From NCBI RefSeq assembly GCF_009914755.1, contig NC_060938.1: a stretch of 64,000 nt of DNA; one strand, written 5' to 3'. Positions 12,943 through 41,399 of the stretch are shown one piece after another (position 1 is the stretch's first letter; each line of letters begins with the position of its first letter). This DNA is from the human T2T-CHM13v2.0 reference genome, Homo sapiens. Below the pieces are notes generated by a model that worked only from the letters and a program-made list of their open reading frames with translations, was not told the DNA's origin and did not search any database. The translations under genes and the position numbers were made by a program.

Positions 12943-12996
<54 letters not shown>

Positions 12997-20070: not shown

Positions 20071-20609
20071 ACAAACTGGAAGTGCCATCTGATCTCCTAT
20101 GAACACCCCCATCACTCCCATGTATGCCAAGTTCAATATGAAACACAACGTCACCATCCTTTTCCCTCAAGGCTGCCAGAAGTTCCCAGGGACATCTCCC
20201 CCCTTCACTCTCACACGAGCTAATGAAGTCAGTGCTTCCCCCACCTGTCAAAGAACTTGCTCCTCAGATGGCAGTACGAGGGTGCCCATCTATAACGACA
20301 ACGCCCAATAGCAGCCTTGATTCTGCTTTTGATTCTTCTCTTCTGATTGTAGGCTGGCTGACATATTCACACTCGGAGCTTCTTTATGTTAATTTCTTTG
20401 TTTGATTTTCCAGTGTCGTTGGCTCTTTGGAATAGTGCAAAGGGCAGGTGAGCCTAGAGAACTGGCTGCAAGTCCCAGAGGAGCCATTTACTTGCTGTGG
20501 GGCATTGGTCGTGATCTGATGCCCGTTGGATCCGTCCCCATTTATTGACCCAGGTTGGGGTTAACGGGGAAGGAATGGGACATGGGACCAGACAGAGCCA
20601 TTGGATGAC

Positions 20610-20758
20610 TGTATAATTGGTGTTCCTGGAGAAAATAACCAAACAAACTATTCAATGCTGTCTTAAAATAAAATTTTCTGAAATAAAGACTAGAAGATTT
20701 CCATCTGCTCCAGCTCACTTTGCCCCTGTCCTTCTTCATACCATTTGTCTGTAGATAG
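20610..20758 (+). repeat. Composite dispersed copy of 26144-26224 fused to a copy of 25203-25272
   Basis: Direct by-eye alignment of both halves (see findings). Confidence 0.9.
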
Positions 20759-21024
20759 CAGAGCATGCAGGGAGGCTTTCTTGTCCATTATTCATGGTTA
20801 AGAGTCACAAGGTAGAGCAACAGCAGGTGATAACCCAGGTGGACCATCTCTGTTAGAGGGAGGGTAAAGAACTCCAATATGAAGGAGAAAAAGTGAACAG
20901 CTAATCCTTAAAAGTGTTTAAGATCAGTCATATTTGGAGAGGTCTGTCGGCAGCCTTCAGGGCCGGACTCCAGGCCAAGCGTAGTCAGGGATAGAATGCC
21001 AAACCAGGGTGAGAGAGGGCAGGA

Positions 21025-21516
21025 GAGACATCTTGAGCATCTGCTGGTTTGCCCACACAAACTCTATCTCCCCTTTTTCTGATAACGAGCATCCATGACT
21101 TCTCTTAGGAAAATTTACTCTTCCTCTCTCAGTCCATATGGTTCAGGTGAGGTTGACTTACCCCATTCCCACATACCTGGGGATGAGTGTGACTCTCACT
21201 CGGGTCCAATGGAGAAAGCACTGGAATTTGGAGGGGGGAAGGAAGCTTTCTTTCTGATGATATTGCTGAGTTTGTTCCAGCAACTAGATGAAACTAGGGG
21301 GTGGCTTAGGGGGCACCAGAAGGAGAGAGAGTCCCTAAATAGAAAGCCAACGTGGAGGAGAGATAGAAAGAAACCAAGCCTGAATAATGCTACGCAGCCC
21401 CCTGGAAGCACCATTGGACTTTACAGCTCTGGACTGCTGCAAGTCTCCTTGTATCTAGTTTAAGCCCATCTCCATTGAGTTTAATTCACTGCCAAAGGAA
21501 TAGTCCTAAATAATAA
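21025..21516 (+). mobile_element. Old MLT1 (K/L-like) LTR
   Basis: ctctcagtccatatggttcaggtgaggttgact...tttaagcccat...gtcctaaataata. Confidence 0.65.
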
Positions 21517-21769
21517 GGTTGAATAGAGCTCATTCCTAAAGCAATTAGGTAGTGGTCAGTTCCATAAGAACTCTCAGAAACTTCAGCTAAAACTAAAAAT
21601 GAGTGTGCGTCCCAGAACAAAGAAGAAACATGGTTACCCAAACTAGGACATGAAACAAGTCATCACGGGGGTTGATTCTGAGTCCCAGAGGGTCAGGGTC
21701 TTCAAATGGCTACCACTCAGGCCACAGTAGGATGGGTTTCCTTGGTGGGGCTGGGAGTGCAGCTGTGAG

Positions 21770-21915
21770 GGTGCAGACGCTGGTTTCCTTATTCACACTA
21801 AGCCAGCCTGACCCAGGAAGTTTGGACAGGCCATTTTCTTCCCTTGGCCTTGGTTTTTCCATCTGTAAAATAAAGAGGCTAGATCAGTTGCTCTTCAGAT
21901 GCCCTTCTAGGTGTG
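21770..21915 (+). mobile_element. MIR3/MIRc
   Basis: ggccttggtttttccatctgtaaaataaagaggctagatcag...cccttctag. Confidence 0.7.
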
Positions 21916-24034
21916 AAAAACCGTAGCCTCCTGCTCCCACCCGGTCCCACTGTGAAGCAGTGGCAAAACCAGAAGAGGTAACACCCAGGATGGCTGTGAG
22001 AGCCTCAGAAGGACAGTTCCTGGAACTTGAATGAAGGTTGTTTGTGAGCAGGGACTCTGACTTCTACACCCATCACGAGAATCTTCCATCTTTCTCTCAC
22101 CTTTCAATTCATCTTCCACACAGCTATCAAAGAGTAGACCCTGAAACACCAATGACATCTTCTTGTGTCTCTTATTTCTTTGACCATGCTTGGCCAAAAA
22201 TGACATTTGTTGAGTTTGAGGATGGAACATCCTGTCAGCTGAAAATTTGGAATTTTATAAAACTCCCATATATAATGCCCTTTTACATTCTTTAAAACAA
22301 AGATGTCAATGGCATCTATAAATGTTACATGGTATAATTTTATATGGTGTGAATTTTATTATCTTATTTTTATTTAAAGTTTCTATAAAATCTTTAGAGA
22401 AGCAAAGAACATGGAAAGTTAGGACGTGTATGTGTCAAGATGTGGGTATAAATGCATGACGGCCTCTCACTTTTATAGCACAGTATCATTGCCTCAATCC
22501 AATCCTGTACTGAGTATGCTATGTTGGCCGAAGTTTTTAACAGCCATGAAGAGAGAGGTTACTTGACTTCTTGATCATTGGAAAGTCCACTCAAGGTCTG
22601 GATATGGCAACACACCATCTTGATGTTGAGAACCACTGGTAATGAGATTGGCCTCCCAGAGAACTGCTGCTAGGGTGGAACCCTGGAAGCTACAGTCAGG
22701 TCCTGCAAGGAGCAGTTAGGAGAACTGCCTCTCCACCCATCCTCTTGTGTATTAATCTCCAACCTTCAGTAGGTTCACGGGTGTCTGCCCACGGTGTGGC
22801 AGGCTTAGGAGCCACGAAGCAGTCAGGTTCCCTCTCCCACCACTCTTTAATCATGAAGCCGTTTTTTCAAAGAGTGTTCTATAAATATTAGCTTTTTCAT
22901 GATGCCCTGCAGGAAACATTCTCTAGACAATCAATTTTTTGCTGGTTTCTGGACTGGATACTGAGGATACAAGTGGAAACTTCTTAGAGAAGATGGGAAC
23001 TCAAGGAACACCTTAGAGAGACAGAACCACACATAGGTAAGTTCAATATTAAGTGGCAAATGCTATGCACCAAATGCTACCAAGCTATGTACCACCAGAG
23101 GAGGTCAAGCTGAAAGTACCGTTTTAAGGTGGGGAAGTAGATATTTCTGGTGGGAGAAGGAGGAAAGCAAGTTTTTGAAAATGGTCAAATGTAACTTGAA
23201 TTTAAGCACATTTTCTTAATAATGTCTTACTAGTTTCTATCACTGAAGCTTTTGGTCACCTATGGAAATGTTTCTAATGATGATGTGAAAATAATCACTC
23301 GATTCATTTTTTTATTAAAAAACTTTTTTAAATGTTTAAGCAAATACAAAAGACTAAAGGACTGTAGAGTCACAACCCTCACCGTGCCTCCATGACAAAA
23401 GCAAAGCAGAGACTCTGCTGGCAGACACCTGTGAACCCACTGAATGCTGGAGATCAATACACAGAGGAGGGCTGGAGGGGCAGTTCTCCTAACCAGGTGG
23501 TAGGTTATCCCCTCAGCCGACACCAGATACAGCAAGAAAAGAAACTGGGTTAGGAGATGCACCATGAGGAAGTGAGAGAATGTGAAGATGAAGACAGTGT
23601 GTAATCACTCTCATTGTGTTATTTGCAATTGCTGAGTGAGTGAAAGGATGCTGTGGCCAGAGTTCAACTTTACAAAGTTTTTGAAGTTGGTTCTCTTCAG
23701 CCTAGCATAGAACATATTGATTGGAAATAGACCAAATTATTGAACCAATCAATAATAGCTATAAAAGTACAAAAAAAGCCCCTTTCTCATCCAGGCACAC
23801 TTAACAGTTCCCGTTATACACTGGTTAGTGAATGGACACTGATAATAAGTGAGCCCAGGGAAAAGTACCCATGAGGTGCCGCTAAAATAGCCACAGAGAT
23901 TAAACTCAAAGCAAAGGGCATGAGGAAAAAGAAATTACTAGGGTTTGCTGAAACTTCTACTGAATTAAAATTTTATTTTTAGACTTCACATATTGTCTAT
24001 AGAGAAAAATAGGAGGAGGAATCAGGAAGTGAAA

Positions 24035-24380
24035 CTCACTTGATTTTGAATGCAAGCTCAGTGATTTATCATCCAGGCACCTGATCTTTCATATTCTCAC
24101 TTTTCTCTTTTTCCTCTGGTAAAATGGGGTTAACAAACCTCACCTCAGCAATGTGGCCTATGTGTAGCCAGTGGTTCTTTGATTAAGATTCTAGAATTGT
24201 TTGCAAAATATAGAAGAGGTGGCAATGTCCTTCTGGAGATCCCATCCAAGAATATAAATTGTCTGGAGAAGTGTGGGCTGCAGGTTCTTGTTTGGATTTG
24301 AATTGAAATAAGCAAAGCATCAACCAAGCTCCTGGACCATCATAGGCATTCAAGCAGCTATAGTCAATATTATCATTGTT
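24035..24380 (+). mobile_element. MIR split by a 138-bp templated insertion
   Basis: 5' half ends gtaaaatggggttaacaaacctcacctcag; 3' half resumes gttcttgtttggatttgaattgaaat...cctggaccatcataggcattcaa. Confidence 0.7.
24147..24284 (+). repeat. Dispersed direct copy of 24822-24971
   Basis: 50-bp identical core tggttctttgattaagattctagaattgtttgcaaaatatagaagaggtg; about 93% identity overall. Confidence 0.97.
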
Positions 24381-25360
24381 ATGCTCAAATTCCTCCTGAC
24401 AAAACTTATTTGGGCCACATATAAATATTGATCCTACGATCCCTTGGCTCTTAGCCTAAATTCTTAAGCTAAATTTGCATCTGTCTTACAATTAAAATCG
24501 GGAGATACAGAAGCCCTAGATTATCATCTCTCTTAATCTAAAAGTCACAGGAATTGTTCATTTGAAGATGGTTAAGAAAGTACATTTTTGCTTGATGCTC
24601 AACTCTTAAACCTACCAAAAATAATAACATTTTTAAAAAGGAATGAGAATAAGAGAGAAGATGACACAAGGGAAGCACCACCACAAACTGAAAGCTATGG
24701 GACACACCTGCCAAACAACATCTAGTTTAAAACCTAGATGGTGGAGGATACTAAGCAAAGAAAAACTCCACCAGCTTGGATATCAAGCGGAGTACGTTGT
24801 CCCTAAAATGCCAACTTTTTGAGCAATGTAGCCAGTGTGTAGCCAATGTGTAGCCAATGGTTCTTTGATTAAGATTCTAGAATTGTTTGCAAAATATAGA
24901 AGAGGTGAGCAATGCCCTTCTGGAGATCTCATCCAAAAATATAAATTGTCTGAAGAAGTGTGGGCTGCAGGACTCATGGCCTCATTGTCTCTTAGCAGAT
25001 AAATATTGTGGAGGTCAAAAGGATCCCAAGAGGGAGAGCAGGTGGGAATTCAAGATGGCAGCACAGAGAATCTGCAGCCTTACTCTTAGCCACAGCAGCA
25101 TTTGAACATTAAAAACTGAGGCAACAAAAAAAAAATGCCTTGTATCTCCCAGGATACAAGACATCCTAGGTATTGTGAAGAGGATGAAAGATTCACTTTG
25201 TCAGACTTGAGGCTTCCATCTGCCCCAGCTCACTTTTCCCCGTCCTTCTTCATACCATTTGTCCGTAGGTAGGCTGAAACAAATTTTGGACATAATACAT
25301 GTTAATGATACTAAAAAAAAAAAACGAAAAGAAAAGAGATATAAAAAAGAGATAGGTAGG

Positions 25361-25649
25361 GGCAAGGTACTGTGGCTCACACCTGTAATATCAGCACTTT
25401 GGGAGGCCAAGCCAAGTGGATCGCTTAAGCCTAGGAGTACAAGACCAGCCTGGGAAAGATGGTGAAACCCTATATTTACAAAAAACAAAATTAGCTGGAT
25501 ACAGTGGCAAGTTCCTGTAGTCTGACCTACTCAGGCAGCTAAGGTGGGAGGATCACTTGAGACCAGGAAGTCAAGGCTGCAGTGAGCTGTGATTGTGCCA
25601 CTGCACTCCAGCCTAGGTGACAGAGTGAGACCCTGTCTAAGAAAAAAAA
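25361..25649 (+). mobile_element. AluJo; tail decayed into (GA)n and TA-rich microsatellite to about 25790
   Basis: ggaggatcacttgag...gtcaaggctgcagtgagctgtgatt. Confidence 0.95.
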
Positions 25650-26585
25650 GAGAGAGAGAGAGAGAGATGAACATATATATATATTTATATATCCATGCAT
25701 ATGAATATATCCATATATATTCATGTTGAATATCCATATCCATATCTATATATTTATATCTATGTAGATGACATAGATATAGATAGATATCAGGAGGAAT
25801 TACCCATAAGGATAAAAAAATAGATCACAAAATAATTATACGTAGCTTTGAGGGGATTTTTCTCTATAGAATTGAACTCAAGGAAGTTATACAATGGTGC
25901 AAAGAAGAGGTTATCAGACATAAAAACAGCTGATAATCTGGAAAAGAAAGAAATGTAAAAGAAAATGATATTAGAGATGAAAATAGTTTTGGAAACAAGA
26001 AAAAAGATAAACACAATTCAGAACCAAAAAAACTTGGAGAGTAAACTTCAGGAAATGGCACAAAGTAAAATGAAAAGAAAAGCAACAAAAATGATTACAT
26101 AGAGGATAATAACATATAAAAGAGCTAAACAAGAGCCAATAAATGTATAATTGGTGCTTCTGGAGGAAAAAAAAATCAAACAAATTATCCATGGCATCTT
26201 AAAAAAATTCTGAAATAAACACTAAAATCTACAAAACAAATAACATGTTATATTTCAGGAAAAAATAATAAAATCCCAGTACTACGACTGACCCTCAAAG
26301 AGAAACAAAACAAATCATGAAGATATCTAAACAAGAGAATCAAGTTACCCAGAATGAACCTCAGCTATTCAATGTCAGAAGAGAGTTGACCGTTCCAAAC
26401 AAAGTTTTGAGGGAAAACAATGTACTCCTAAATTGCATAGAGAGCAAGCTAGTCTTTAGCCATAAAAACAATAGAAGGTATCAAAGGATGGAGTACTTGA
26501 GGACTCTAGCAGCCCTGACTCATTCTTTTAAAATCTGCTGGACTCTAAACCCAGTTAACAATGCTGGGAATAAAAAAACAAACTT

Positions 26586-26877
26586 GGCTGGGTGCAGTGG
26601 CTCACGCCTGTAATCCCAGCACTTTGGGAGTCGGGGCGGGCAGATCACTTGGGGTCAGGAGTTCAAGACCAGCCTGGCCAATATGGTGAAACCCCATCTC
26701 TACTAAAAATATAAAAATTAGTTGGGTGTGGTAGCATTCGCCTGTAATCCCAGCTATTCAGGATGCTGAGGCAGGAGAATGGCTTGAACCCAGGAGGCGG
26801 AGGCTACAGTGAGCCCAGATCGCACCGCTGCACTCCAGCCTAGGTGACAGAGTGAGACTCCATCTCAAAAAAATTAA
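26586..26877 (+). mobile_element. AluS (Sx/Sz)
   Basis: Full dimer; TSD aataaaaaaacaaactt 26569-26585 / aataaaaaaacaagctc 26878-26894. Confidence 0.96.
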
Positions 26878-27699
26878 AATAAAAAAACAAGCTCAGGAAT
26901 AGAGAAGCTATGTTAAGAAGACTAATAAAAGGCATTGAGTTCATTCAAACGTAAACGTGTCATTAAACAATTGTAAAAAGTATAATTAACAAACTCATAA
27001 ATGTAAAAAACATATAAACTGTAAAAATGACACAAAATTCAAATGTAAAATTAATAATGTAACTGACAAAAATCAGGGACTAGAGGAAGGCATAAAAGAA
27101 AGCACAGACTTGCTAATTTTTTCATCTTTTATAGAAAAAATCAGTAGGTACTCTTTAAAGTTGAGAGAGTCTTCTAAAAATTCTTCAAGTTTTTCCATAA
27201 TGAATCTCATTTTTAGATGAAGAAACATGTGTCTATAAATCAAGTTGTTCAGTTTCTTGCTGCTGTTTTTGTAGTGAAGCAAAAAATATGCATTTGATTT
27301 TATAAAAACCAGAAATATAATTTGTACTAGCAATATGTACTTTCTAGCTATATTTTAACTTGTTTCCTATTATATACACAAAAGTGTCCAACTGATGATT
27401 ATCAAATGTTAGATAATTGTTACTTCTGAGTGATTTGAAATGACAATTTTAAGTTTCTTTTCACTTAACCGCTTGCATTTTTTCATAATTATCAGAGTTT
27501 TCAACAAAAGAAAAATTGTTTATCCCTACCACCAAATGCCATCCCCATTTTCTTATAATTTATTGGACACGAGTTGCATGACAACCACCTAAGTGGTCAT
27601 CTAATGTTCTACTTGTCAGTTGAAAACAATACTCTCACATCATTCTTTACTGAGCCATGTGACCAGCCAGGGGCATCTGATCCCCAGAGCTCCCACCCT

Positions 27700-28440
27700 T
27701 GAGAGGAGAGGCTGATGAAGAGCCATCCTGGCCCAGAGGCCTCCATGCTCCTGCCGGGTCACCCTCCGCAGCACTGTCCAGTGTCTTTCATCCAGCACCC
27801 CCTGCCACGTCCTGCAGGGCCCGCGAGATACACACACTGCAGCCTCCCTGCTCCTACAACCCCTTCGGCATCGGTGCCTCTTCCTGAATGCTCCAAGCTT
27901 GTGCTCCGTTTAGATCCTTTGCTTTTTCTTTGGCTGGAGTGCGGTTTCCCCTGATCTCCACAACATCTCATCACCTAGACATCAGCTCACCGACTCAGTA
28001 ATGCCTGATTACCTATTCCATCCCACCCTTGAAAGTTTTAGGTCCTTCTTAGCACTCATTATTGCCTGAAATCATCTCATTCATTGATCCCTTTACTTGT
28101 TTATTGTATCTTCCCTCCAACCACCCCCACCCAACACCCAAATAATTCAGGAGAGGAGGGGGGCACCTCTTGCTTGTTCACTCCTGTATACCCAGTGCCT
28201 GAACTGCTGGTGGCATATAGTAAGCACATAATAAATACCTGTGGAACCAGGGCTGGCTTCATGGGCACATGATCTGTGCCATTGCACATGGCCCCAAGTC
28301 CAGAATGGCCCTGCACCTAATTAATGCTCTGCTGTTGCTGTCTTGAAATTTTTAACAATTTTGAAGGAAAGGTTCTATATTTTTATTTGTCCCATAAATT
28401 TTGTAGTAGGTTCTATGTGAATGAATGAATGAATGAATGC
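27700..28440 (+). mobile_element. L2a 3' part with (GAAT)n end, interrupted by MER91A
   Basis: cttgttcactcctgtatacccagtgcct...catatagtaagcacataataaatac; (gaat)5 at about 28418-28438. Confidence 0.8.
28248..28415 (+). mobile_element. MER91A (hAT-Tip100)
   Basis: cagggctggcttcatgggc...ttaatgctctgctgttgctgtcttgaaatt. Confidence 0.85.
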
Positions 28441-28444
28441 TACC

Positions 28445-29480
28445 TAAGTGATCTTGGGCAGGTCACTCCAGACTTGAAGCCTGTTTTCTGAAAAGTAGGG
28501 ACAATAACCCCTCCAGTGCCTGATTCACAGAGCCTCATAGGATCACCACAGAGGACGTAAGGAAAGCTCGCCCAAGACATGCACCTCCCAGACACATAGC
28601 TCATCTACCCAACTAACCACGCTCAACCTACACTTCTGCCGCTTTAAGCAGATTTTTTTTTATCTTCAAAGTGCTTTTCCTTATACTGTTTTCCATTCGA
28701 AATGCCACCCTGTTCCCTGTCGGGCTGGCTGCTCATGTCTATCAGGACAAAGAGAGGGTATTTCCCGCTCTAGAAAGCCTTCCCAACCCAAGAGGACTAG
28801 TAGACCCTCCTCTAAACCCCCTCAAAATTCTTTGCTTGTGTTTTTCACAGTGCCATTACGTTCTTAGGCAGGGCTGTCATTTATTCATTTCACAAACCTC
28901 TCTTGCTTTTCTACTCAATACCTGGTCCTTTGATTGACACCTGAGAGCCGGAGAAGCCTGAGGCTGAACCTGGCAGGACCGACAAATATCCCATCTTTTC
29001 TGCCATTGTTATGAGCCCATAAGGGGTGCTCCATAATCATTTGTGGAATGATTGATTGACTCAAAGGCAGGATTGGGACTTGGGAGACCTTGTGTCTAAC
29101 CAAGACTTTGCCACAAATTTGCAGGCTGACCTTGAAAAAGTCAATGGTCCTCTCATGTTCATAGTTTCTCCTTCTGCAAAATAGGGAGAGGGAAGGGCCA
29201 GACTAGAAAACCTGTTTCTTGTCTTCTTTTTGTCTAAACCCTAGAGTCTATAAATGTGGATCAAATGGCAATAGAAGCAGCATCGTGAATAATATCTCCT
29301 CCAGTCATCACAAAAACCTTGTAAAATAGAGAATTATTCCAGTTTTTCAGAGGACAGATGCATGGCTTAGAGAATTTAAATACATTTACTTGCTGCTGCA
29401 CAACATATAAATGACCACTCTAAGATCAGAATTTACCTACCTGCCTCCAAAACCCATGTGTCAAGCCACTCCACAAGGCT
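28445..29480. mobile_element. MIR fragments (28445-28570 +, 29065-29250 +, 29290-29480 -)
   Basis: Degenerate MIR cores. Confidence 0.6.
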
Positions 29481-29869
29481 TCTAATCCAATCCTATCCAA
29501 TCCAATCTAATCTTCATTCCTCAGGCCCCTGGCTGGTCTCAAAACAAAAAGCACATATGAGTTAAGAATAGAAAATATAAGACTGCATACTGTAAATAGT
29601 TTTTCCCCGATCACCATCTAGTTAGCCAGGATTTGAAAGCAGGGGATTCCCCTCTTCTGGCTGGCATGAAGCATCATCAAATCCATGAGCGTCAATCTCC
29701 AGGGCCTTGCTGTAAATCACTCCCACAACATAGAAAGCCTGGTACTCACATCCATATGGGTCAAATAGAAGAGGTGATCTTGCCCCAAGAAGCTGATTCC
29801 CAAGTTCCCTGTCCGTTGATCCAAGGCATCCACTCAGGTGCTTGTGTTGGTGACAAAAGAGCTCCCCAG

Positions 29870-30410
29870 AGGGCTGTCAGGAAGCTGATCATGTGATAGA
29901 TCCTCTGTGTAGCTCTGGCCCTTTCACCAGCCTCACCCTTTGACAGTTATTACTGCTGCAATAAATTCTTCAGTAAAACAAACAGGCACGCTGTAAATTT
30001 ATTAGTCTGGGCACTCTGTGTTACTTAACGTAACGGCCAGTCTTAAACAGGTAACTACTGCAGTAAATAAACCAGTTTATTTAGGCACTGTCAGCCCTAA
30101 GTGTTCACGGGGGCCTGGAGAAATGGCATTGGCCTTTATAAGCATGATATATGCCTACATAAATTACACTTGCCCACTCAGATATTTGATGGTAACACAC
30201 CACCTGGGAAGAGTGTGACAGCTCAAAACATCTCTGTAAACTTCAAAAAGTCTATTTACAGGGGACATGGTACTTTATATGGAACTGTATATATAAGTAG
30301 AATTTGTATATATGGTCTCAGTATAAAATAAACCAGTGCCCTGCATTTGCATATTATGTGAATGCATGCAAAATTGACTAAGGTTTTCTGCTGAGCTGTT
30401 TGCAGAGGGC
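29870..30410. promoter_or_regulatory. Candidate developmental enhancer (FOX/MEIS/OCT motifs)
   Basis: TGACAG x4 (29874, 29941, 30088, 30216); inverted taaataaac-ca-gtttattta 30064-30083; atttgcat 30345. Confidence 0.45.
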
Positions 30411-30574
30411 TAAGTGGAGAACAGAAATAAGAGAAGAAAGAAAGGAACTCATATTTATTGAACCAGACCAATGTCTAGGCATCTCCAGACACCAAGTTCA
30501 AGCAAATAATAAATTCTGGGCCTCTGTGCCAGGTTCTGTGCTAGGCTTTCCATAAAAATATTTGTTGGGTAGTA

Positions 30575-31204
<630 letters not shown>

Positions 31205-31209
31205 GATAC

Positions 31210-31400
31210 ATGTGTCAAAGTGCTTTGAAACGTATTATCTAATTTTACCCCTGCAACACCATGGTGGGTAGGAATTCTCATACCCATTGCACAGATGAGG
31301 ACACTGAGACTGGGAGAGATTGAATAACTTCTTGAACATTTCAGAGCCAGTAGTTGATGGAGGCAGTGTTCCAACTCAGTTCTGATTCCAGAATCCACAG
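31210..31400 (-). mobile_element. MIR
   Basis: cccattgcacagatgaggacactgagact core. Confidence 0.85.
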
Positions 31401-32169
31401 GGCCCCGAAAGGCAATTCTCTGTACAGTGCTTGATCCACATGAAGTTTCCTTTATTACCCTCTCTTTAAAAAGCAGTGTGTCTGTGTGTTTAATGGGGAT
31501 AATTTCACTGAAAAACGTAGTTGGAATTGTTTAAAGGACAATTGCAAAAGTTAAAAGAATCAGCGCCAGGAGAAGAAGACAGTATATAACAGAACTAAAG
31601 CTTTCTCCAGGCCATATTTGGATTCAATTGCCTGTTACCCAGAGCCCTGAAAATAAATGTACTGATAAATAATTATTTCCTGCCCCACACATAACCAAAT
31701 ATGACTATGCCTGGCCTGGTGGCCAAGGAGACAACCCATTGTTCAAATGCCTGGCCCCACTCCCCTTGGCTGCAAAAAAATGTGGCTTCACTTTCCTGTG
31801 AATCCCAACTCAAAAAATAGAATGGCATATAGTCAGCAAATGCCTCACGTTGGCTCACCACTGCCCAGCCCTGGGATCAATTAGATAAACACAGAGCAAA
31901 GAGGCTTCCTCCGAATATGGTCAGGAAAACAGTCTCCTCTGGGTCTGGTGATTCTGGCACCTTCTGCTTGAGAAATGATGCACAGAGCCCTACAATTGGA
32001 CAGCATCCCATTCACAGTCACCCTTCTCCATGGAGTGGCCATTGGAAGGTGCACTGTGACAGTCCACAGCATCTTGCCTTGGAGTAAATTCTAAGTGAGA
32101 GTCAGGACAGTGGGTGTCAACTAGTCCTACCCAGGGAGGCAAAGTGCAAGGATAACAGCAACAACAACA

Positions 32170-32950
32170 AAATGCATGGGATTTTTGGACCAAATCAGTC
32201 TAGGTTTCACACCTATTCTGCTGCACACTGGCCTTGAGATCTTGATCAAGTCACTTTATCTCCTTGGTGTCTACTTCTTTGTATAACATGAATGGTACCC
32301 ACCTAACTATAGATCGAATAAGCTAACATTGTTAAAATACTTAGCCTAGGGGTGGACTTAAACTCTCTCATTAGATCCCTTTATCCCCTACTCAACAAAC
32401 AGGGAAACGAAGGTGAAGGTTGATCATCTGAGGCTAGAGTCAAGGTTCTACCCCAGATCTCCATTACAGTCAAGGCTGTGCTGTCCAGAGTGGAAGCATC
32501 TTATCTCCCTAAAGGATGCTGCCTTAAAAAGGTATATTTTGGCCCCAGTATCTGTACTCTCAAGTGATCTTAATTCTAAACTCTGCAACTATCTGTGTGC
32601 ATACCCCTCTGCCCCACTAGACCATAAGCTCCTCGAGAGCATAAACCACTTATTATCCATCTCGGTACACCAAGTGCCTGGCAGACAGCAAGCCAAGGTT
32701 TCTAATGAATCCTTATTGAGTGACTGAAGCAGATAGAAACTCTTCTCATGTCCCATACCACCTGCACTTCCCCCACCCCCCTCTACCACCACCAATGGCC
32801 AGGGCCATTCTGGGGCATGACTGCTTGTCTACATATCCTTCCTCAGAAGACTCTAAGAGCCACGGTGGCTGTGTCTAAGTTGCTGTCAGTCACATTTCTG
32901 CAATGGAATGGAATGCCTAGCACATAGTAGGTGCTTGAGAGCTAGTAGCT
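32170..32950 (+). mobile_element. MIR (32170-32350) and L2 3' fragments (32570-32730, 32840-32950)
   Basis: ctagaccataagctcctcgagagca; gcctagcacatagtaggtgct. Confidence 0.65.
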
Positions 32951-33006
32951 GAAAAGTGGTTGACAGCCATGTAACAGCGCACTGGAGGAAAGGAGGGGAG
33001 AGTGGA

Positions 33007-33279
33007 TTTATTTATTTTTTTATTTTTATTTTTATTTATGTGAGTGCATAGTAGGTGTACCTATTTATGGGGTGCATGAGATGTTTTGATATGGGCATGC
33101 AATGAGTAATAATCCCATCAAGTAAAATGGGGTCTCCATCCCCTCAAGCATTTATCCTTTGTGTTACAAACAGTCCAATTACACTCTTTTAGTTATTTTT
33201 AAATGTACAATTAAATTACAATGGACTTTGGTCACCCTGTTGCTGCACTATCACCTACTAAGTCTTATTCACTCTTTCC
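33007..33279 (-). mobile_element. L1MA2/3 3' end
   Basis: catagtaggtgtacctatttatggggtgcatgagatgttttgata...cctcaagcatttatcctttgtgttacaaac. Confidence 0.9.
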
Positions 33280-33284
33280 ACGTG

Positions 33285-33510
33285 AATTTAGTTTTATTGA
33301 ACACCTAGCATGTGCCAGAGGCTCTACCTGGAGCCTCTTCATGGTTGATCATTACAGGCACACCTAGGCACACGCACACAGCAGACACCATCCCCGTTTC
33401 TACAGATGAATAAGATTGAGTTTGGAGACTTGAGCCAACCTGTTCAAGACCACACAGCTAGTGGCTGTCAGAGTTCAAATGAAGCTCACGTCTGACTGCA
33501 AAACCCTTGC
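33285..33510 (-). mobile_element. MIR
   Basis: tttattgaacacctagcatgtgccag...tacagatgaa...accacacagctagt. Confidence 0.8.
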
Positions 33511-34493
33511 AATGCCACACTGTTTCTTCGAAATCCTGCAGAAATTTTTGCTTCCTTTGCCATTTTTCCTAGAGCCAGCTGGGAGGTTCTCACTGTCTGA
33601 CCCCTTGCCATCGCTGGTGGGAGGAACCATGGGGGCCAGCCTGGCTGAACAATGGATTGTGCTGGCTGCAGGAACAAGGGAAGGGCTAGGTCTTCCTACC
33701 AATACGCCTTTAGCATCCCAGGTCCTTATTTTGCACAAGTCTGGACCCCTTGGACTTCAGGGCCAGAGAACTGTGGGTGTAGGGACATGGGACTCCCCGC
33801 CCTCCCAGAGCCCTGCAGGGAGATAGACCCATGTGCCAGCGTGAGTTGAGCCTCGTGCATTGGTGCATGTCCCTGTGGCCGGCTGCCACGAGCCGGGGGA
33901 TGAAATGTTACTTGTGGTGGCCATGGTTTCTACAGGCATGTGGGAGTCCCCTTCACAGCATGAAGTCCAGCCTCCACGTCTGCGCCTGCTCACCAAGAAG
34001 CCCCAGTGCAGGGGCAGGGGGACTGCTGGCAGCATTGGAGAGTCATGAAGATAAATTGACCAGAGGCATCCACACATATTTAGGGAGGAGGAGGACCAGC
34101 AGCCACAGTATTAAATAGAGACTGAGCATGGGTTTGGCCCTCAGCCAGGCTCCTTACTCTGCCCACCCCATTCAAGCCCCAAGGCAATGCCTTGATAGCC
34201 ATTTTGCAGATGAGAAAACTGAGGACCATCAGATGCTTAGAGAAGAAAATGATGGAGGGGAATGTTTCTATTCCACCGTCAGTATTAACATTGGGAGCAA
34301 GAAGCTTAAACCTGAATCCAGAGATTTCTTGACCAGATCAAGAATAATCTGAGAGTAAACCTGTAGAAAGGGGAGCTATCCTGTCCTCTCGTTTCCTTGG
34401 TGTGAAACCCAACAGGGTACAAGTGTTCACCAATATGCACTGCTTGCTGGAGTTCCCTTCTTTATCCACTTTGAAGAGAACTGGCAAACTTCT

Positions 34494-34529
34494 CATAGTG
34501 CTATGACTTCACATAGTGCTGTGACTTCA
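34494..34529 (+). repeat. 18-bp tandem duplication
   Basis: catagtgctatgacttca / catagtgctgtgacttca. Confidence 0.92.
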
Positions 34530-35289
34530 CGCAGTTTCTTCAGGGGCTAGGTGGTATGCTCTAAAAGTTACATGTATTTGTTCACCTGCAGATGTTTGTC
34601 CCAGGTTTTCAGAATCTCGTCGGTCATTATACAAAGCACATGGCCATCCATGGGCTCCCATCTTTGTGAAGTAGAACCACACCCATCTAATGGTGAGAAA
34701 AAGAGGCTTAGAGAGCCAGGAACACTGCCCAGGGCTGAAGAGCAGCAAAGAGCAGACTCTGTTTCCTCCTCCAAATTGCTTTGCCCAGAAGGGTCTGGAT
34801 TCTGTGGTCCAGGGAAGCTCCTCAGAGAATCTCTTGTTTGTTCCCACCCATGAGGTCTATGGTCTCCAATCCTCCCGTTGGGTCTGCTTCCAAGTTCCTC
34901 TACAGACATGACCTGAGCAAACTGAACTTCCCCCTTCCTCCTCCTTCTCCTCCTCCTTCTCATCTCCAGCATGCTGGACACATCAGCCTGACATGTCTTT
35001 CCAATTAGGCCAGTCCTGAGCTGCAGGGAAACAGGAAACCTCAGACCCATCCAGACTCAGGAAACCAGTCAGAGACAGTGGCGGCCCTGGCCGTGGCGTC
35101 AGCCGGGAGACACAGCCCAACACAGGCAGCCTCTGCCTGCCTCCTCCTAGACACTGCCCACCCCTCCTGCTGCAGGCCAAGGGCCTGGCCCGAGGAATGG
35201 AGATGGGTGAACATGCCTTTAGATCTCCCAGAAATGACCCCCAGCAAGAGTGGGCTGAGAGGCTGATCCTAGATGGAAATCTAAGAAGC

Positions 35290-35930
35290 TAAACAGCCCT
35301 GTGTTATGAGCACTGGCTTTGGGGTCATGTGGACATCAGTTTGTACCCAGCTCCACCACTTTGTAGCTGTGAAGCCTTGAGTGGACTTCTCCTTCTCTCC
35401 TGATGATTCCTGCAAGGTGGCATGATCCCCATTTTGAAGGACCATGGTAGAGATACACACAATGAGATCATGTTTGAACAGCCCAGCCCAGCACCTGGCA
35501 AGTGGTAAGTGCTTATTTGTCCCAAAGAATGGGCAAGCTCTTCACATAAACCAACCCCTTGGCTCCTCACAGCTGCTCTGGGAGGAGGGTATTTGTGGTT
35601 TCTTTTTACAGATAAAACTGAATCCAGATCTATGTGAATTGCAGTGGAAGAAGCATGGAATTCAAAATCAGGTGGATATGGATGGAAATCCCAGCCGTGT
35701 CATTTGCTAGTTCAGGGCTGATAAATGTGACTGTTTAGACCATACCCACCGCTGTGCTTGAGCACATCATCTCGCATTCCTAAGTCACACCCTTCGGAGG
35801 GTGTGCTGGCCTGTGTTCTACAATGGAGGCATTTGAGGCCCAGAGAGTTTGCCTAATAAGCCCAAGCTCCTACCCAGGAGTGGAGGAGCTGACATTTGAC
35901 TTGGCCGTCTGTGGCTTGGAGGCCATCTCT
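35290..35930. mobile_element. MIR cluster (35290-35520 +, 35640-35720 +, 35760-35930 -)
   Basis: Degenerate MIR motifs. Confidence 0.6.
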
Positions 35931-36229
35931 GCAGCTCCCCAAGCTTCATCTTCTCCTGTGTAACGTGTCTAAAAATCTCTCTGTGAAGGCTCTGGCAAAG
36001 AATTCACAGTACCTGGTACTCCAGGACATTTACAAAGAACAAAACTGAAATGCTCAAGCAACTGGGGTCTGCGTGGGAGTGGCGCTGAATCAGCAGTGTC
36101 CATGACAGAACAGATGGCTCAACCCCTCGAAGCCTCTTGCAACCCATTTTGCCTCTGAAGGGCCTTCAGATTTGCCCTGTGCAGATCCACACATCTGCAG
36201 ACCCCAGGTCAGAACTCAAAGGCCAGCTG

Positions 36230-36822
36230 ACAGTATGGCAGTTCCTCAGAAAGTTAAACACGAAATTATCATGTGAGCCAGCAATTTCTCTTCTGGGAAT
36301 ATACCCAGAAGAATCGGAAGCAGGAACTGGAATGCAGATTTGTACACCCGTGTCCATAGCAGCATTGTTCACACTAAACAAAAGGCAGAAGCAACCCATA
36401 TGTCCATTCATAGTCAAATGGATAAACAAAATGTGGTATACATACAATGGAATATTATACAGCCTTAAAAAGGAAGGAAATTGTAACACATGCTACAACA
36501 CAGGCACTCCTTGACACCATTGTGCTGAGTGAAGGAAGCCAGTCATGAAAGGACAAATTCTGCACAATTCTACTTATAGGAGGCCCCTAGAGTAGTCAGA
36601 TTCATAGAGACGGGAAGTAGAATGGTGGGTACCAGGGGCTGGTGAGAGGGGAAATGAGGGGTTGTTCAGTGGGGACAGAGTTTCTGCTTTGGATGATAAA
36701 AAAATTCTTGGAAGTAGATAGTGATAGTGGTTGTACAATATTCTGAATTGTACGTTTAAACATGGTTAAAATGATGAGTTTCATGTTACGAGTATTTTAT
36801 CACAATTAAAAAAAAAAAAAAA
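36230..36822 (+). mobile_element. L1MB3-like ORF2 end, 3' UTR and poly(A)
   Basis: ORF 36137-36514 carries L1 ORF2 C-terminal-like peptide (WQFLRKLN...PAISLLGIYP...AALFT...WINKMWY). Confidence 0.93.
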
Positions 36823-36827
36823 GAAAA

Positions 36828-37133
36828 GGCCAGGCGTAGTGGCTCAGCCTTGTAATTCCAGCACTTTGGGAGGCTGAGACAGGCAGATCACGAGGTCAAG
36901 AGTTCGGAACCAGTCTGGCCAACGTGGTGAAACCCTGTCTCTACTAAAAATACAAAAATTAGCCATGCATGCTGGCAGGCACCTGTAATCCCAACTACTC
37001 AGGAGGCTGAGGCAGGAGAATCACTTGAACCTGGGAGGCGGAGGTTGCAGTGAGCCAAGATTGTGCTACTCCACTCCAGCTTGAGTGACAGAGCAACACT
37101 CCGTCTTGGTAAAAAAAAAGAAAAAAGAAAAAA
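36828..37133 (+). mobile_element. AluS inserted in the L1 poly(A) tail
   Basis: Full dimer directly after the A-tract. Confidence 0.96.
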
Positions 37134-37984
37134 GTCAGGTGAATGAATTTACCAGGGATTCTCCTCCCAAGAGTTCACATCTGCACTTGCATGACTTGGT
37201 GCCTTGATGGTGTGATTGGCAGCTCAGCACATCCTGGTGTGGCCCCCGTGGAAGAGCTCCCTGCACAAAGGGGCCAACAGAAGAGAGAGGGCTTCTCTGC
37301 TGGGGACCCTCCAGGAAAGCCCCACATGCTGCCCTGGCCTGGCCCCCAGGAACCCGCCCCCTCAGCGACCCTCAGCGTCCTGTCTTTCCACAAGACCTGT
37401 CCCTGCAGATAGGATGGGGAGGCCCCTGGAGAGTTAGGGTGCAAGGAGGTGGAGCTGTGTTTGGTGGGAGAAAAGAACTTTGGAATGAAGGTAGACAGGT
37501 TGGTTCAGATTTTCTCGGAAGGTGCGGGGAAGGGTTAATGGGCAAAAGAAAGATCAATGTTTCTCCCTGAAATTTCAACAGTCATAGATTTTAATGCAAT
37601 GAAGCTGTGGAGTGTAAGCTGGGAATCTCTGATGAAAACGAATACAGCAAGACCAATGCCTTCCACATCGACTGCACCTACCTGGAGTGCCGGCCCTCTT
37701 GCAGAAGGCTCCAGTACCCACTTACTCACAGAAAGAATGGGAGGGCTGAGTGTTGGGCCCCCTCCAGTTCTTTTACTTTAACTAACTTTTTTTTTTATTT
37801 AGGAAAAAAAATCTACTAAAATAAAGCAAAATAAGAAGCTACAGGTATTAAACCTGATGTGTTTAAACCCCAATGAATAACAGACTTCCAAGTCAAGAAT
37901 AGTGCTAAGAGCATATGGTTATGACATAACCCTCTCCCTGCACCCCACCTTTGCTTGTAGGTGGCCATGTGCAAACTGTGTCTG

Positions 37985-38008
37985 CACACACACACACACA
38001 CACACACA
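37985..38008 (+). repeat. (CA)12
   Basis: Direct read. Confidence 0.98.
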
Positions 38009-38028
38009 GCATTAGTTCTTTCATTCAG

Positions 38029-38100
38029 CTGGACTCTGGCTTCATTTCATATTGTCATAAAATGCATTTAATAAAATTTAGGTCTTTGGTATTTGATTTA
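38029..38100 (+). other. Candidate 72-nt cryptic exon
   Basis: ttctttcattcag acceptor and gtaagt donor, stop-free in frame 0. No expression evidence. Confidence 0.25.
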
Positions 38101-38102
38101 GT

Positions 38103-38104
<2 letters not shown>

Positions 38105-38132
<28 letters not shown>
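38105..38132 (+). repeat. (GT)14
   Basis: Direct read. Confidence 0.98.
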
Positions 38133-38133
<1 letters not shown>

Positions 38134-39539
38134 CACTTGGTGTGTGCAGCTACCTTGCCAGTACATGGGCAGAGCTTTACATTTATAGATGCAAACCTTC
38201 CCCACAGCTGGAAGGAACCAGTGCTCTCTAATCTGGAATACATTTCCAGAGGGAAACTGAGCCTCAGAGTTCATTAACTTGTCCAAGGTCATTTAAGGAG
38301 CTTTCCTTCCTCCTCATCTACTTGACCTTGACTCTGCTCTCTGGCTTCGGTTTCAAGAGCAACTTGAACCTGAAGACTGGGCCCAGTGAGCTGCCCCAGA
38401 GCCAGACAGCCTTTTCAATATTTATCTAAGATGCTACACTATTTTAGCAAATACAGTTTTAAACAGCAATTGTACCTCTCAGATTCTATCTTCTAGAAAT
38501 AAGTCGGCACCTCAATATGATATTTGTGACAAAGCAAAGAGTTGTTTTTACTCTACATTCCATTTATACTTGTTTCACAGACATCCACTAATTTTTGATT
38601 CATAATATTTCCTCCTCTGTTCTTAACCAGAGTCCTGCTCCAGGTCTTCCACACCCTATCATCAAGGTGTAATTTTTCTGCAGTCATTTTTTTTAGAAAA
38701 AATCAATAAATTGTTTGTGATTCCTCTAACTGAGACCACATGGCTTTAGTGTAGAAATTCAACATTTACGTTAAGCAGTAAATCTATTCTGTCAGCCACT
38801 ATGATGTGGGAGTTGTTATGAAAAGATAATGATATTTTTCCAGGCGCACATACACGTACACACAGCAGTTAAAACTGGCTTCCATAGAGAAGATGCCCGG
38901 TGTGTTTCACTGGCTCTTTCTAGCACCCAGCAGGTCACCGCGTGGACATCCACAGACGTTCGGTGGTGTTCACTTATCCCAGCTCGCTTCTCCAGACCTG
39001 ACATTCCTTCCTGTTTTGGGTATGAGTTGATCTGGATCTGGAAGCTTATTGAGTGGCCATTGATGAAGCGGGAAGAGGACTGAACTAGGAACCAGGGGAC
39101 CCAGGTTCTAGGCCACAACTTGCAGTAACAATCATCAGTGTGACCCCTTGTTCGGGGGCACCTGGTAGGTGGCAACTGTCTGTATATTCCTGAGAGCGCC
39201 AACAGCCCCTGTTTATAGGGGAGGAGCCTGAGCTTACAGGAGGTCCCCAAGGTTACCCAGCCAGATGATATTGGTGCCAGCCTGCTCCAATGTCCATGCC
39301 TTCCCACAAAAGATCCCATGGCCCTTGGGATCCGTTGGCCTTTGGAACCTCTTAGCTTCTTGGATATTCTGTGTCTTCATTTGTAAAATGGGAGGGTTGA
39401 AAAAAAAGATTTTAAAAGTGTTTTCTGGCTCATAACTATGACATGCTTGTTCAGCTCACAGCATCATCACTTGAAATGGTCACGTTGCCATCACTCTTCA
39501 CCTCAATGCTTTTTCGTAAGCAGATCTAGAAAGCTCACA

Positions 39540-39815
39540 GGAGCATCCCAAGAATGCCCCCCAATTATTCCCCTCCCCATATCCACAACCTTTGCACTAT
39601 GAGCACAACACCTTCCATCAAGGGACAATGAATCTACTTCCCACACCTTGACTCTGGGCTGGCCGTGTGGTCACAGTGGAAGGAACACTGTGCCCATTCT
39701 CAGAGAAGGCCTTGAGAGGCCCTGCACACTTCTGCTTTGCAAAAAAAGCTGCCTGGTTACCATGAAACAAGCCCAGGCCAGCCTGTTAGAGAAAATCAAG
39801 GCCACACAGAAACGT
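39540..39815 (+). mobile_element. MLT1F/G-like LTR 5' part
   Basis: ccttgactctgggctggcc...ggccttgagaggccctgcac...ccatgaaacaagcccaggccagcctg. Confidence 0.75.
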
Positions 39816-39834
39816 TGCCGCAGCTGTGGACATC

Positions 39835-40135
39835 TCCTCTGGTTCCCCATCGCTATGTAACAAACCACCCCAAATTCTACGGCTTAAACCATGGTGCCTC
39901 AAAATTCTGATCAAAGGAGATCTTTTAGAGCCTTGTCATATGGCCCCAAGTATTTGTTATTCTCTTTCCTGGTTCCTCATATCTCTCTCGTGTCTGCAGA
40001 CAAATGACAGCCAGGGCGGAAGTCATCTGAAGGCTCAGCTAGGTTGGACATCCAAGACAGCTTCCTCCCTACAAGTCTGGTGCCTCACCAGGGTGGCTAA
40101 GGCAGTCTGGGGTTGGCCGGGCACCTCTCTTCACT
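39835..40135 (-). mobile_element. MLT1G/H-like LTR 3' part carrying a 67-bp templated insertion
   Basis: gtaacaaaccaccccaaa...ggcttaaa; agtcatctgaaggctc...ggacatccaaga. Confidence 0.75.
39889..39955 (+). repeat. Dispersed direct copy of 41217-41282
   Basis: ccatggtgcctcaaaattctgatcaaaggagatcttttagagccttgtcatatgg vs ccatggtgtctcaaagttctgatcaaagaagatcttttagatccttgtcatatgg. Confidence 0.95.
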
Positions 40136-40439
40136 TCTCACTTTCTTCTCTCTTCTCTTTTCTCTCCCCTTCTCCTTTCCTCCCTGATCCCCATCCTCTG
40201 TCCCTCCCTTCTTCCCTGTCTCTCTCCCTCCCTCTTCCTCTCCAAAGAACAAGGATTGTACCTCCCTCGCTTCCATCTGCCCCCACCTTAACCCAGCGTC
40301 TGGCACCTGGAGGCATGTCATGTGTCTCCCTGGCCGTCTGCCACTGCATTCCTCCAAGGTTGGGTTTTCTCCTTGGGACTTAGTCTCAGTCTGAGAGTTA
40401 CCACCCCAGCGGTGCCTCTTCTGGCCTGTGGAGTGAGTC

Positions 40440-40920
40440 AGAAAATCTCCAAGTAGGAGATCTTTCAGGGGACAGAGGGCATGATTCTAGCTCCAGAAGC
40501 CCCATCTTCAGCAAACCGAAGAGCTCCCTCAATGGTCCTCGAGTCCCACAACCATCCCAGCAGGCCTCTTCCTACTGTCCTCCTGGAGGTCTAGACAGCT
40601 GCTGAAATGCATCACCCAAGCAGAATGCAACCCTCAGGACATAACTGATTTGAGTCAGGCACACTGACACCAGCACCTCCCTCATTCTAAGAATCATTCT
40701 TCCGTTCATGTGGCCAAAACCTGCATTACCCTTCTTGAAAACCACGCTGGTAACATGAGATTTTGTAAACGCCAGTGCTTCCCAGAGCCAAGACTTTCAG
40801 GGTCCCAAGGGCAAATGCTTATTATGCTATTTCTTTCCCTTCCTCAATTAAGGAAATTGTTTATTTGTTTGTTTTGCAAGTCCTCACATCTGGAACTTGT
40901 CTCCACTCCTGTTAAAGGGA
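40440..40920 (-). mobile_element. L3/CR1 fragment
   Basis: cacctccctcattctaagaatcattcttccgttcatgtggccaaaacctgcatta resembles reverse CR1 ORF2. Confidence 0.55.
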
Positions 40921-40939
40921 AGATAGCCCTATTTTACAA

Positions 40940-41190
40940 AATAAGCAGAAGACTTGGAGTCACAGATCCAGGCACGAGTCCAGGTTCCAACCTTCCTCAC
41001 TGTGTAAGAGGCCGGGAGCACCTTATTGCTAACTCCTATTTCCTAGTCCAGAAAGTCGGGGCAGCTGTGCCTGCTCTCTTCTCATCAGGAGCACCAAAGC
41101 ATTTCAGGTGCCCAGCACAGCGTCTGACCTAGAGTGCTCTGAATAAATGGAAGATGTTAGAATTAACAACAGTATTAACAATCATGAAAA
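40940..41190 (+). mobile_element. MIR
   Basis: gacttggagtcacagatcc...gcccagcacagcgtctgacctagagtgctctgaataaatg. Confidence 0.65.
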
Positions 41191-41399
41191 TGATAACAAT
41201 TATATGATGATATATTCCATGGTGTCTCAAAGTTCTGATCAAAGAAGATCTTTTAGATCCTTGTCATATGGTCCAGGTATTTTCAATTCAGCTTCTTGTC
41301 CTCCGCAAACTTGTAACACTGTCAACATTTTCAACTGACTTATTAAGAGCACCTTTGAATCAGACAGGGATGATAAAGCCTTCGGGATGCTGTTGCATC

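What the first reader, a model, noticed from the sequence alone, without database searches (positions are those of the whole stretch)
20593..41282. Recurrent short templated insertions, always direct and upstream of the donor
Seen: four segments of about 60-140 bp have same-strand copies nearby: 24147-24284 from 24822-24971 (0.68 kb), 20687-20758 from 25203-25272 (4.5 kb), 20610-20692 from 26144-26224 (5.5 kb), 39889-39955 from 41217-41282 (1.3 kb). Three pairs are about 90-93% identical, none has a poly(A) tail, and all show short junction microhomology. In the two cases where a host repeat shows the direction, the upstream copy is the insertion. Three donors lie in one old L1/HAL1-like element. 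Established: microhomology-primed template switching (polymerase theta end joining, MMBIR/FoSTeS) produces templated insertions, and short paired duplications occur in mammals. Inference: similar divergence and shared polarity suggest one complex repair episode or a directional local bias.
Basis: partly seen in the sequence, partly recalled or inferred. Interest (0 to 1): 0.72.

Follow-up and report, generated by a model that had tools for sequence, protein, structure and literature searches.

The report
Short DNA copies pasted by repair
Four short stretches of human DNA (67-160 bases) each have copies 0.6-5.5 kb away, one of them reversed; they are likely scars of old chromosome-break repairs that copied nearby DNA, a known and ordinary process, here somewhat crowded together.

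Summary
The four pairs are real (82-203 alignment-level support far above chance: 66-203 bits vs at most 41 in 30 resampled windows). The headline is not. A fifth pair, 22715-22789 / 23420-23493, is inverted, so 'always direct' fails. That leaves four events. The upstream copy is the insertion in three, and probably in the inverted one, but 4 of 4 has P=0.125. The nearest catalogued event, 168 kb away, has the opposite polarity and one inverted donor. These are repair-mediated duplications as described by Pace et al. 2009 (824 in human, donors within 5 kb, no poly(A), two-donor chimeras, both polarities). Their 5-14% divergence is the usual value for that class, so it is no evidence for one episode. 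None of these four is in that paper's table. Density is higher than in 20 random 10-kb stretches (4 events in 64 kb vs 1 in 200 kb, P 0.014-0.043, post hoc). A single episode for the three events within 5.7 kb is not excluded. Primate alignments would decide it.

The parts
24147..24284 (+). Event A, inserted copy (138 nt)
   Evidence: 126 of 133 columns match 24838-24971. It splits a MIR-like SINE: profile positions 56-123 lie at 24076-24147 and 126-231 at 24282-24379. The only other match in the genome search is the local donor.
24822..24971 (+). Event A, donor; holds three copies of an 11-mer at 24827-24859 where the insert has two
   Evidence: its flanks give no hit to the SINE profile
24076..24379 (+). 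MIR-like SINE remnant interrupted by A (family name recalled)
   Evidence: Profile of 36 copies built without this site: left flank alone 8.2 bits, both flanks together 18.4 bits
20593..20598 (+). Left copy of a 6-nt direct repeat (likely target-site duplication) bounding the B+C insert; 5 of its 6 nt match the start of donor C
   Evidence: a repeat of 6 nt or more at both edges occurs at 190 of 20000 random sites; 9 copy edges were tested
20599..20695 (+). Event B+C, first templated part (from donor C)
   Evidence: 80 of 93 columns match 26132-26227. It sides with the local donor against a distant copy of the same repeat at 18 columns vs 1.
20687..20758 (+). Event B+C, second templated part (from donor B). 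The switch zone 20687-20691 matches donor B 5 of 5 and donor C 4 of 5.
   Evidence: the only genome matches of 20400-21000 are the two local donors
20759..20764 (+). Right copy of the 6-nt direct repeat
25203..25272 (+). Donor B
26132..26227 (+). Donor C, inside an old A-rich dispersed repeat (26066-26467; L1/HAL1 ORF1-like by recall only)
   Evidence: A copy on contig C3 aligns across 26066-26467 (score 119, null maximum 53) but only across 20594-20694 at the upstream site. Pfam and PDB searches gave no significant match.
22715..22789 (+).
   Evidence: 66 of 74 columns match the reverse complement of 23420-23493. Its flanks 22708-22713 and 22790-22793 repeat 22807-22816, which happens at 17 of 1500 random sites (post hoc statistic).
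23420..23493 (-). Event E, inverted partner; probably the donor
   Evidence: no such flank repeat
39889..39955 (+). Event D, inserted copy (67 nt) inside an old LTR-like dispersed repeat (about 39831-40130; MLT2-like by recall), with loss of roughly 20-50 nt of host
   Evidence: 60 of 66 columns match 41217-41282. Ten other host copies were found. The spacing between two anchors is 148 here and 101, 115, 122, 131 in the 4 of 10 copies that hold both anchors.
41217..41282 (+). Event D, donor
   Evidence: a MIR-like piece lies to its left (41099-41172) and does not span it

Best explanation
Four short inserts, 67-160 nt, each match DNA 0.6-5.5 kb away (three direct, one inverted, one built from two donors), and they likely arose as separate germline break repairs in primate ancestors in which a broken end copied nearby DNA and was then rejoined. 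Shown: the pairs; which copy is the insert for A, B+C and D; a 6-nt edge repeat and a 4-5 nt switch microhomology in B+C; host loss at D; no poly(A). Inferred: a double-strand break, priming on 2-5 nt of microhomology, 67-160 nt of synthesis, release and end joining (the SDSA-like repair-mediated duplication model of Pace et al.; the polymerase is not identified), an age of tens of millions of years, and independence of the events. The shared side is taken as chance. The crowding is taken as chance seen after selection, or as a locally break-prone stretch.
For: Size, distance, missing poly(A), junction marks and the two-donor form all match Pace et al. 2009: 824 events within 5 kb, mean 162 bp; 0 of 39 proximal events with poly(A); microhomology 2-9 nt; target-site duplication 4-21 nt; 20 two-donor chimeras, 5 with both donors local. 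Local donors are the best or only non-self genome matches. C sides with its local donor 18 to 1. Polarity in the catalogue is 75:67 in 142 rows counted. The catalogued neighbour 168 kb away has upstream donors, one direct and one inverted. Divergences of 5-14% are typical of the catalogue's 'All primates' rows (mean 10.0, SD 3.3, n=73), and A differs from B+C (P=0.043). A similar event occurs in 1 of 20 random 10-kb stretches.
Against: Four events in 64 kb, three of them within 5.7 kb, is more than my small control gives (conditional P 0.014-0.043). It would be expected in under one window genome-wide if the true rate is 2 per Mb or less, and the catalogue's minimum is 0.62 per Mb of repeat DNA. 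Divergences are not significantly heterogeneous overall (P=0.27). All four inserts appear to lie upstream of their donors. Pace et al. saw no trend to cluster, so this window is atypical. No outgroup genome was available, so empty sites and dates were not seen. The host loss at D (about 20-50 nt) exceeds their 1-15 nt range.
Confidence: 0.68

Rival explanations
1. A, B+C and E (20.6-26.2 kb) come from one germline episode: a nascent strand filling a long single-stranded tract, or a stalled fork, jumped ahead, copied 70-140 nt and returned several times. Only DNA ahead of it is single-stranded, so every insert lies upstream of its donor (FoSTeS/MMBIR, local n-jump type).
For: Three events lie within 5.7 kb, all with the insert (probably) upstream; the donors of A, B and C lie within 1.4 kb; divergences are not significantly different overall (P=0.27); B+C already shows one template switch. 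Single-event local clusters with mixed orientation are described in tumours (passages) and at germline deletions (passages).
Against: A is less diverged than B+C (5.3% vs 12.3%, P=0.043) and than C (P=0.031; uncorrected). It needs three accurate returns with kilobases of untouched DNA between them. D, 15 kb away, has the same form and would need its own event. Shared polarity is within chance.
Confidence: 0.17
2. The events are independent, but the region has a lasting directional bias, for example from replication fork direction, that puts donors on one side.
For: 4 of 4 inserts upstream within the window; the window has a non-zero strand skew (S=-3.8%, bootstrap -6.1 to -1.2).
Against: P=0.125. 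The neighbour 168 kb away has the opposite polarity while its skew has the same sign (-11.9%, noisy: SD 8.1 for 10-kb stretches); 4 of 5 gives P=0.375. By the recalled sign convention a negative skew means leftward forks, the wrong way for a jump-ahead model.
Confidence: 0.07
3. The pairs are independent fragments of old, low-copy repeat families, or for E the terminal inverted repeats of a DNA transposon, and not copies of each other.
For: C's donor lies in a dispersed repeat, and a distant copy scores almost as well as the upstream copy (59.9 vs 66.2 bits). The genome search skips common words, so 'no match' is weak.
Against: A, B, D and E found no partner but the local one. C sides with the local donor 18 to 1 (P=8e-5) and its match stops at the insert edges. 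The whole E stretch 22560-23600 has no second copy.
Confidence: 0.05
4. The inserts are RNA-templated (retrocopies, or repair from the predicted lncRNA LOC124903403).
For: Donors A and B lie in the predicted last exon, and donor B ends at 25272, one base from the predicted exon edge at 25273 (and the annotation given). B+C has a 6-nt edge repeat.
Against: No poly(A/T). The bases after B in the insert do not match the next exon. Donor C is intronic and comes before B in the insert. D and E's upstream copy lie outside the transcript.
Confidence: 0.03

Closest known systems
Repair-mediated duplications (Pace, Sen, Batzer, Feschotte 2009, PMC2671141)
   Same: Inserts of 50 bp or more with one local donor, mostly within 5 kb; no poly(A); microhomology, deletion or short target-site duplication; two-donor chimeras; about 10% divergence for the primate-wide class; donors on either side.
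   Different: Four events in 64 kb against a catalogue minimum of 0.62 per Mb of repeat DNA. None of the four is among the 63 chr14 entries of Table S1. Donor C (5.4 kb) is just beyond their cut-off, and D's host loss is larger than their 1-15 nt range.
Short paired duplications or 'doublets' (Thomas et al. 2004; paper not held, known here only through Pace et al.)
   Same: Short local non-tandem duplicates in mammals, attributed to imperfect break repair.
   Different: That survey used identical or near-identical copies; only A has a long exact run (50 nt; the others 13-22).
Polymorphic inverted duplications and locally templated inserts at complex deletions (Sudmant et al. 2015, PMC4617611)
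   Same: Stretches under 1 kb inserted within 5 kb of the other copy, inverted (as E); local templates within 10 kb at 53% of complex deletions (as D).
   Different: Those are recent and polymorphic; these are 5-14% diverged.
Polymerase theta-mediated end joining; FoSTeS/MMBIR local n-jumps
   Same: Microhomology priming and template switching, as at the B/C junction.
   Different: Typical theta inserts are shorter and templated from within tens of bases of the break (recalled). Local n-jumps (Li et al. 2020) are single somatic events with larger segments. The enzyme cannot be read from sequence.

Membership tests
Repair-mediated duplication (Pace 2009) | Insert of 50 bp or more copied from one other place | tested here: met
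   67-160 nt; local partner is the best or only non-self match. The search has limited sensitivity, and donor C sits in a dispersed repeat.
Repair-mediated duplication (Pace 2009) | Donor within 5 kb (for chimeras, at least one donor) | tested here: met
   Gaps: A 0.55 kb, E 0.63, D 1.26, B 4.46; C is the second donor, 0.86 kb from B
Repair-mediated duplication (Pace 2009) | One copy interrupts older host sequence | tested here: met
   A, D, B+C. E is only suggestive.
Repair-mediated duplication (Pace 2009) | No poly(A/T) tail | tested here: met
   Longest A or T run near the ends is 4
Repair-mediated duplication (Pace 2009) | Microhomology, deletion, filler or short duplication at the junctions | tested here: inconclusive
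   Direct at the B/C junction; 6-nt edge repeat at B+C; host loss at D; 2-4 nt at A inferred only from a degenerate SINE profile; not determinable elsewhere without an empty site
Repair-mediated duplication (Pace 2009) | Empty orthologous site in an outgroup genome | not testable with these tools
   No related genome is held for this window
Single complex episode (FoSTeS/MMBIR, local n-jump) | All junctions of one age | tested here: inconclusive
   Homogeneity P=0.27; A vs B+C P=0.043
   E is inverted; the neighbour event has one inverted donor
   4 of 4 P=0.125; with the neighbour 4 of 5 P=0.375
Polymerase theta-mediated end joining | Dependence on POLQ | not testable with these tools
   Needs experiment
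Polymerase theta-mediated end joining | Short insert templated from within tens of bases of the break (recalled feature) | tested here: not met
   Donors are 0.55-5.4 kb away and inserts 67-160 nt
L1-mediated retrocopy or transduction | Poly(A) tail, or a spliced template | tested here: not met
DNA transposon with terminal inverted repeats (for E) | Other copies of the element in the genome | tested here: not met
   22560-23600 matches only itself (limited sensitivity)
L1/HAL1 element as host of three donors | Donors A, B and C lie in one LINE copy | tested here: inconclusive
   Only 26066-26467 aligns to a distant copy; no repeat match around A or B; Pfam 0 of 5 stretches; no repeat library was available

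The most novel reading that the evidence does not exclude
A, B+C and E are the fossil of one germline repair episode in a primate ancestor: one synthesis tract of at least 5.6 kb that jumped ahead and returned three times, switching template four times and once to the opposite strand, and became fixed. That would be a kilobase-scale germline counterpart of the local n-jumps of tumours, recognisable by inserts that all lie behind their donors, and repair-mediated duplications would then come in same-age, same-side clusters genome-wide.
Probability: 0.17. Interest if true: 0.5.

Novelty: new member of a known kind. Interest (0 to 1): 0.2.

Why it matters
As read here it matters little. It adds four uncatalogued examples, one of the rare kind with two local donors (5 of 824 in Pace et al.), to a class described in 2009, and suggests that the catalogue undercounts it. 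If the three close events share one branch and such clusters recur, single germline repairs with repeated jump-and-return copying would be shown to fix in evolution, and donor side would record the direction of repair synthesis. That is testable with existing primate assemblies.

Tried and rejected
'Always direct' was rejected by the self-comparison. An RNA template was rejected. A transposon reading of E was not supported. C as an independent repeat fragment was rejected by the three-way count, with only one distant copy available; a search for more found none. L1 ORF1 identity of the C host was not confirmed: Pfam 0 of 5 stop-free stretches, PDB best E=0.67. Single-sequence searches of 14 flanks found no colinear host repeat, and a first motif-based test of A's host was uninformative (2 of 4). 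A first SINE profile also picked up Alu and gave no hit at A; the cleaned one did. Its null joins often scored high because they held real SINE copies, so the evidence is the colinear split, not the score. Strand skew gave no support for a fork-direction bias. Rfam: 0 matches in 19500-42000. Background: 100 random 10-kb stretches were drawn and only 20 could be analysed; no sequence adjoining the window was analysed. At looser thresholds 3 more of the 20 stretches had weak pairs (28 nt inverted, 33 nt direct, 92 nt at 71%), left out of the count for being under 45 nt or under 55 bits; the same filters dropped C in the window. Thomas et al. 2004 was not held. Searches for the Abyzov and Onozawa papers (recalled) did not return them. 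Earlier scan findings were not available.
Full report
Observation. A: 24152-24284 vs 24838-24971, 126 of 133 columns; it extends to 24147/24822 if an extra 11-mer in the donor is allowed for. B: 20687-20758 vs 25203-25272, 63 of 70. C: 20594-20695 vs 26132-26227, 80 of 93 plus five gaps. D: 39889-39955 vs 41217-41282, 60 of 66. E: 22715-22789 vs the reverse complement of 23420-23493, 66 of 74. BLAST scores are 66-203 bits; the best chance score in 30 locally resampled sequences was 41. E is inverted, so 'always direct' is false.

Uniqueness. In searches of the whole genome, A, B, D and E found no partner but the local one. The tool warns that it skips common words, so this does not prove rarity. 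C's donor also matches a copy on contig C3 (59.9 bits against 66.2 for the upstream copy). That copy aligns to the donor region over 400 nt, on both sides of the C segment (26066-26467, score 119, null maximum 53), but to the upstream site only over 20594-20694. In a three-way count the upstream copy agrees with the local donor against C3 at 18 columns and with C3 against the donor at 1. So C was copied from the local donor.

B and C are one insert. They overlap at 20687-20695, where 20687-20691 match donor B at 5 of 5 and donor C at 4 of 5. This is the one junction where microhomology can be read directly, because both templates are known. The insert is bounded by an exact 6-nt direct repeat (20593-20598, 20759-20764), and five of its bases match the start of donor C. 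A repeat this long at both edges occurs at 190 of 20000 random sites; nine copy edges were tested. The window therefore holds four events: A, B+C, D, E.

Direction. A: a profile built from 36 MIR-like copies, leaving this site out, matches positions 56-123 left of the upstream copy and 126-231 right of it; the downstream copy's flanks give no hit. D: four of ten other copies of its host repeat hold both of two anchors, spaced 101-131 nt against 148 here, so 67 nt came in and about 20-50 nt of host were lost. E: the flanks of the upstream copy repeat a 10-mer 17 nt further on (17 of 1500 random sites; none at the downstream copy). That is suggestive and post hoc. The family names MIR, MLT2 and L1/HAL1 are recalled; no repeat library was available, and Pfam and PDB did not confirm an L1 ORF1. 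Only donor C was shown to lie in a repeat. No insert has a poly(A/T) run.

Polarity. With E, four of four inserts lie upstream: P=0.125. 'Upstream on the + strand' must be near 50:50 genome-wide by symmetry, and Table S1 of Pace et al. gives 75 donor-downstream to 67 donor-upstream in the 142 of 824 rows I counted; chr14 gives 9 to 12 in 21 rows (counted by eye). The nearest catalogued event (hg18 chr14:98,157,320) was found in L046 with the listed geometry, 168 kb before B+C. Both donors lie upstream of the acceptor named in the table, one direct (90%) and one inverted (92%). This also fixes the coordinate offset: the window is about hg18 98.304-98.368 Mb, where none of the 63 chr14 places in the table falls. 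Strand skew has the same sign at both places (-3.8% and a noisy -11.9%), which gives no support to a fork-direction bias.

Age. Divergences are A 5.3%, B 10%, C 14%, D 9.1%, E 10.8%, with wide intervals. Homogeneity is not rejected (P=0.27), but A differs from B+C (P=0.043, uncorrected). The catalogue's 'All primates' rows in part 2 of the table average 10.0% (SD 3.3), and 59 of 73 lie at 5-14%. Similar divergence is thus what unrelated events would show. The age (primate, tens of millions of years) is inferred from this comparison.

Density. One pipeline gave 4 unique pairs in the window (A, B, D, E) and one event in 20 random 10-kb stretches (L038 3694-3998 vs 8089-8445). I drew 100 stretches and could analyse 20. 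The conditional probability is 0.014-0.043 depending on how exposure is counted, and the window was chosen for this feature. The control rate is 5-8 per Mb with an interval of about 0.1-46. Windows with four or more events expected genome-wide: about 0 at 0.62 per Mb, 0.5 at 2, 7 at 4, 33 at 6. Whether this window is a true cluster is therefore open; it is the one surprising thing left. Pace et al. saw no trend to cluster. Meiotic break hotspots raise indel and structural-variant rates 100-1300-fold per break (passages), so an old hotspot is a possible cause; that is inference and was not tested.

Mechanism. Most likely (0.68): four separate germline breaks. In each, a 3' end primed on a few bases of microhomology 0.6-5.5 kb away, copied 67-160 nt (switching once in B+C, using the opposite strand in E), let go and was joined to the other end, leaving a 6-nt duplication (B+C), a deletion (D) or a near-clean join (A). 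Rivals: one jump-and-return episode for A, B+C and E (0.17); a regional directional bias (0.07); unrelated repeat fragments (0.05); an RNA template (0.03).

Comparison. The events meet the testable features of repair-mediated duplications (Pace et al. 2009): 824 human cases within 5 kb, mean 162 bp, no poly(A) in 39 of 39 proximal cases, 20 two-donor chimeras of which 5 had both donors local. The empty-site test could not be run. Inverted local copies like E are common among human polymorphisms (54% of 229 sequenced inversions; passages). The long donor distances are unlike typical polymerase theta inserts (recalled).

What I read. Pace 2009: parts 1-5 of 8 of the main text, the methods section on identification, passages, parts 1-2 of 15 of Table S1 and all its chr14 rows. 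Sudmant 2015, Hinch 2023, Li 2020: passages only; their supplements were not opened. Thomas 2004: not held; its list of doublets may include A. One search on the locus names listed four papers whose titles and abstracts do not concern these duplications (listing only). That is too little to say the events are not in print.

Verdict. Real, of a known kind, with the two headline regularities either false (orientation) or within chance (side). Interest 0.2.

Noticed in passing
L046 3005-7099 (G000:C14:92849005-92853099): The two-donor event of Pace Table S1 row 123. The table gives no orientation: the first donor is direct (90%), the second inverted (92%), and the two parts overlap by 5 nt in the acceptor. 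Two of the rare both-donors-local events thus lie 168 kb apart.
   Followed up: partly
window 20594-20695 vs 26132-26227: Changes since the copy are lopsided: 7-10 on the insert, 1 on the donor (P 0.02-0.07). This could be error-prone copying, or bias because the outgroup copy was found with the donor as query.
   Followed up: partly
window 25272-25275: Donor B ends one base from the predicted splice acceptor of LOC124903403; the insert does not continue into the next exon, so this is likely chance.
   Followed up: yes
L038 3694-3998 vs 8089-8445: A direct local duplication of about 305 nt, 4.1 kb apart (85-94%), in a random control stretch; it covers the end of an LTR-like repeat and flanking DNA.
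   Followed up: partly
window 24827-24859: Three copies of an 11-mer in donor A against two in the insert: one unit was gained or lost at or after the copy.
   Followed up: no
window 12650-13000: AT-rich, partly palindromic tandem array (periods 2, 12, 19, 44, 45) with inverted self-matches of about 250 nt at 71%.
   Followed up: no
window 660-704 and 13172-13255: Perfect 23-nt tandem duplication, and a 31-nt unit in 2.7 copies at 98%: likely recent tandem duplications.
   Followed up: no
window 24001-56000: Persistent excess of C over G on the + strand outside masked repeats (-5 to -10% per 8 kb).
   Followed up: partly
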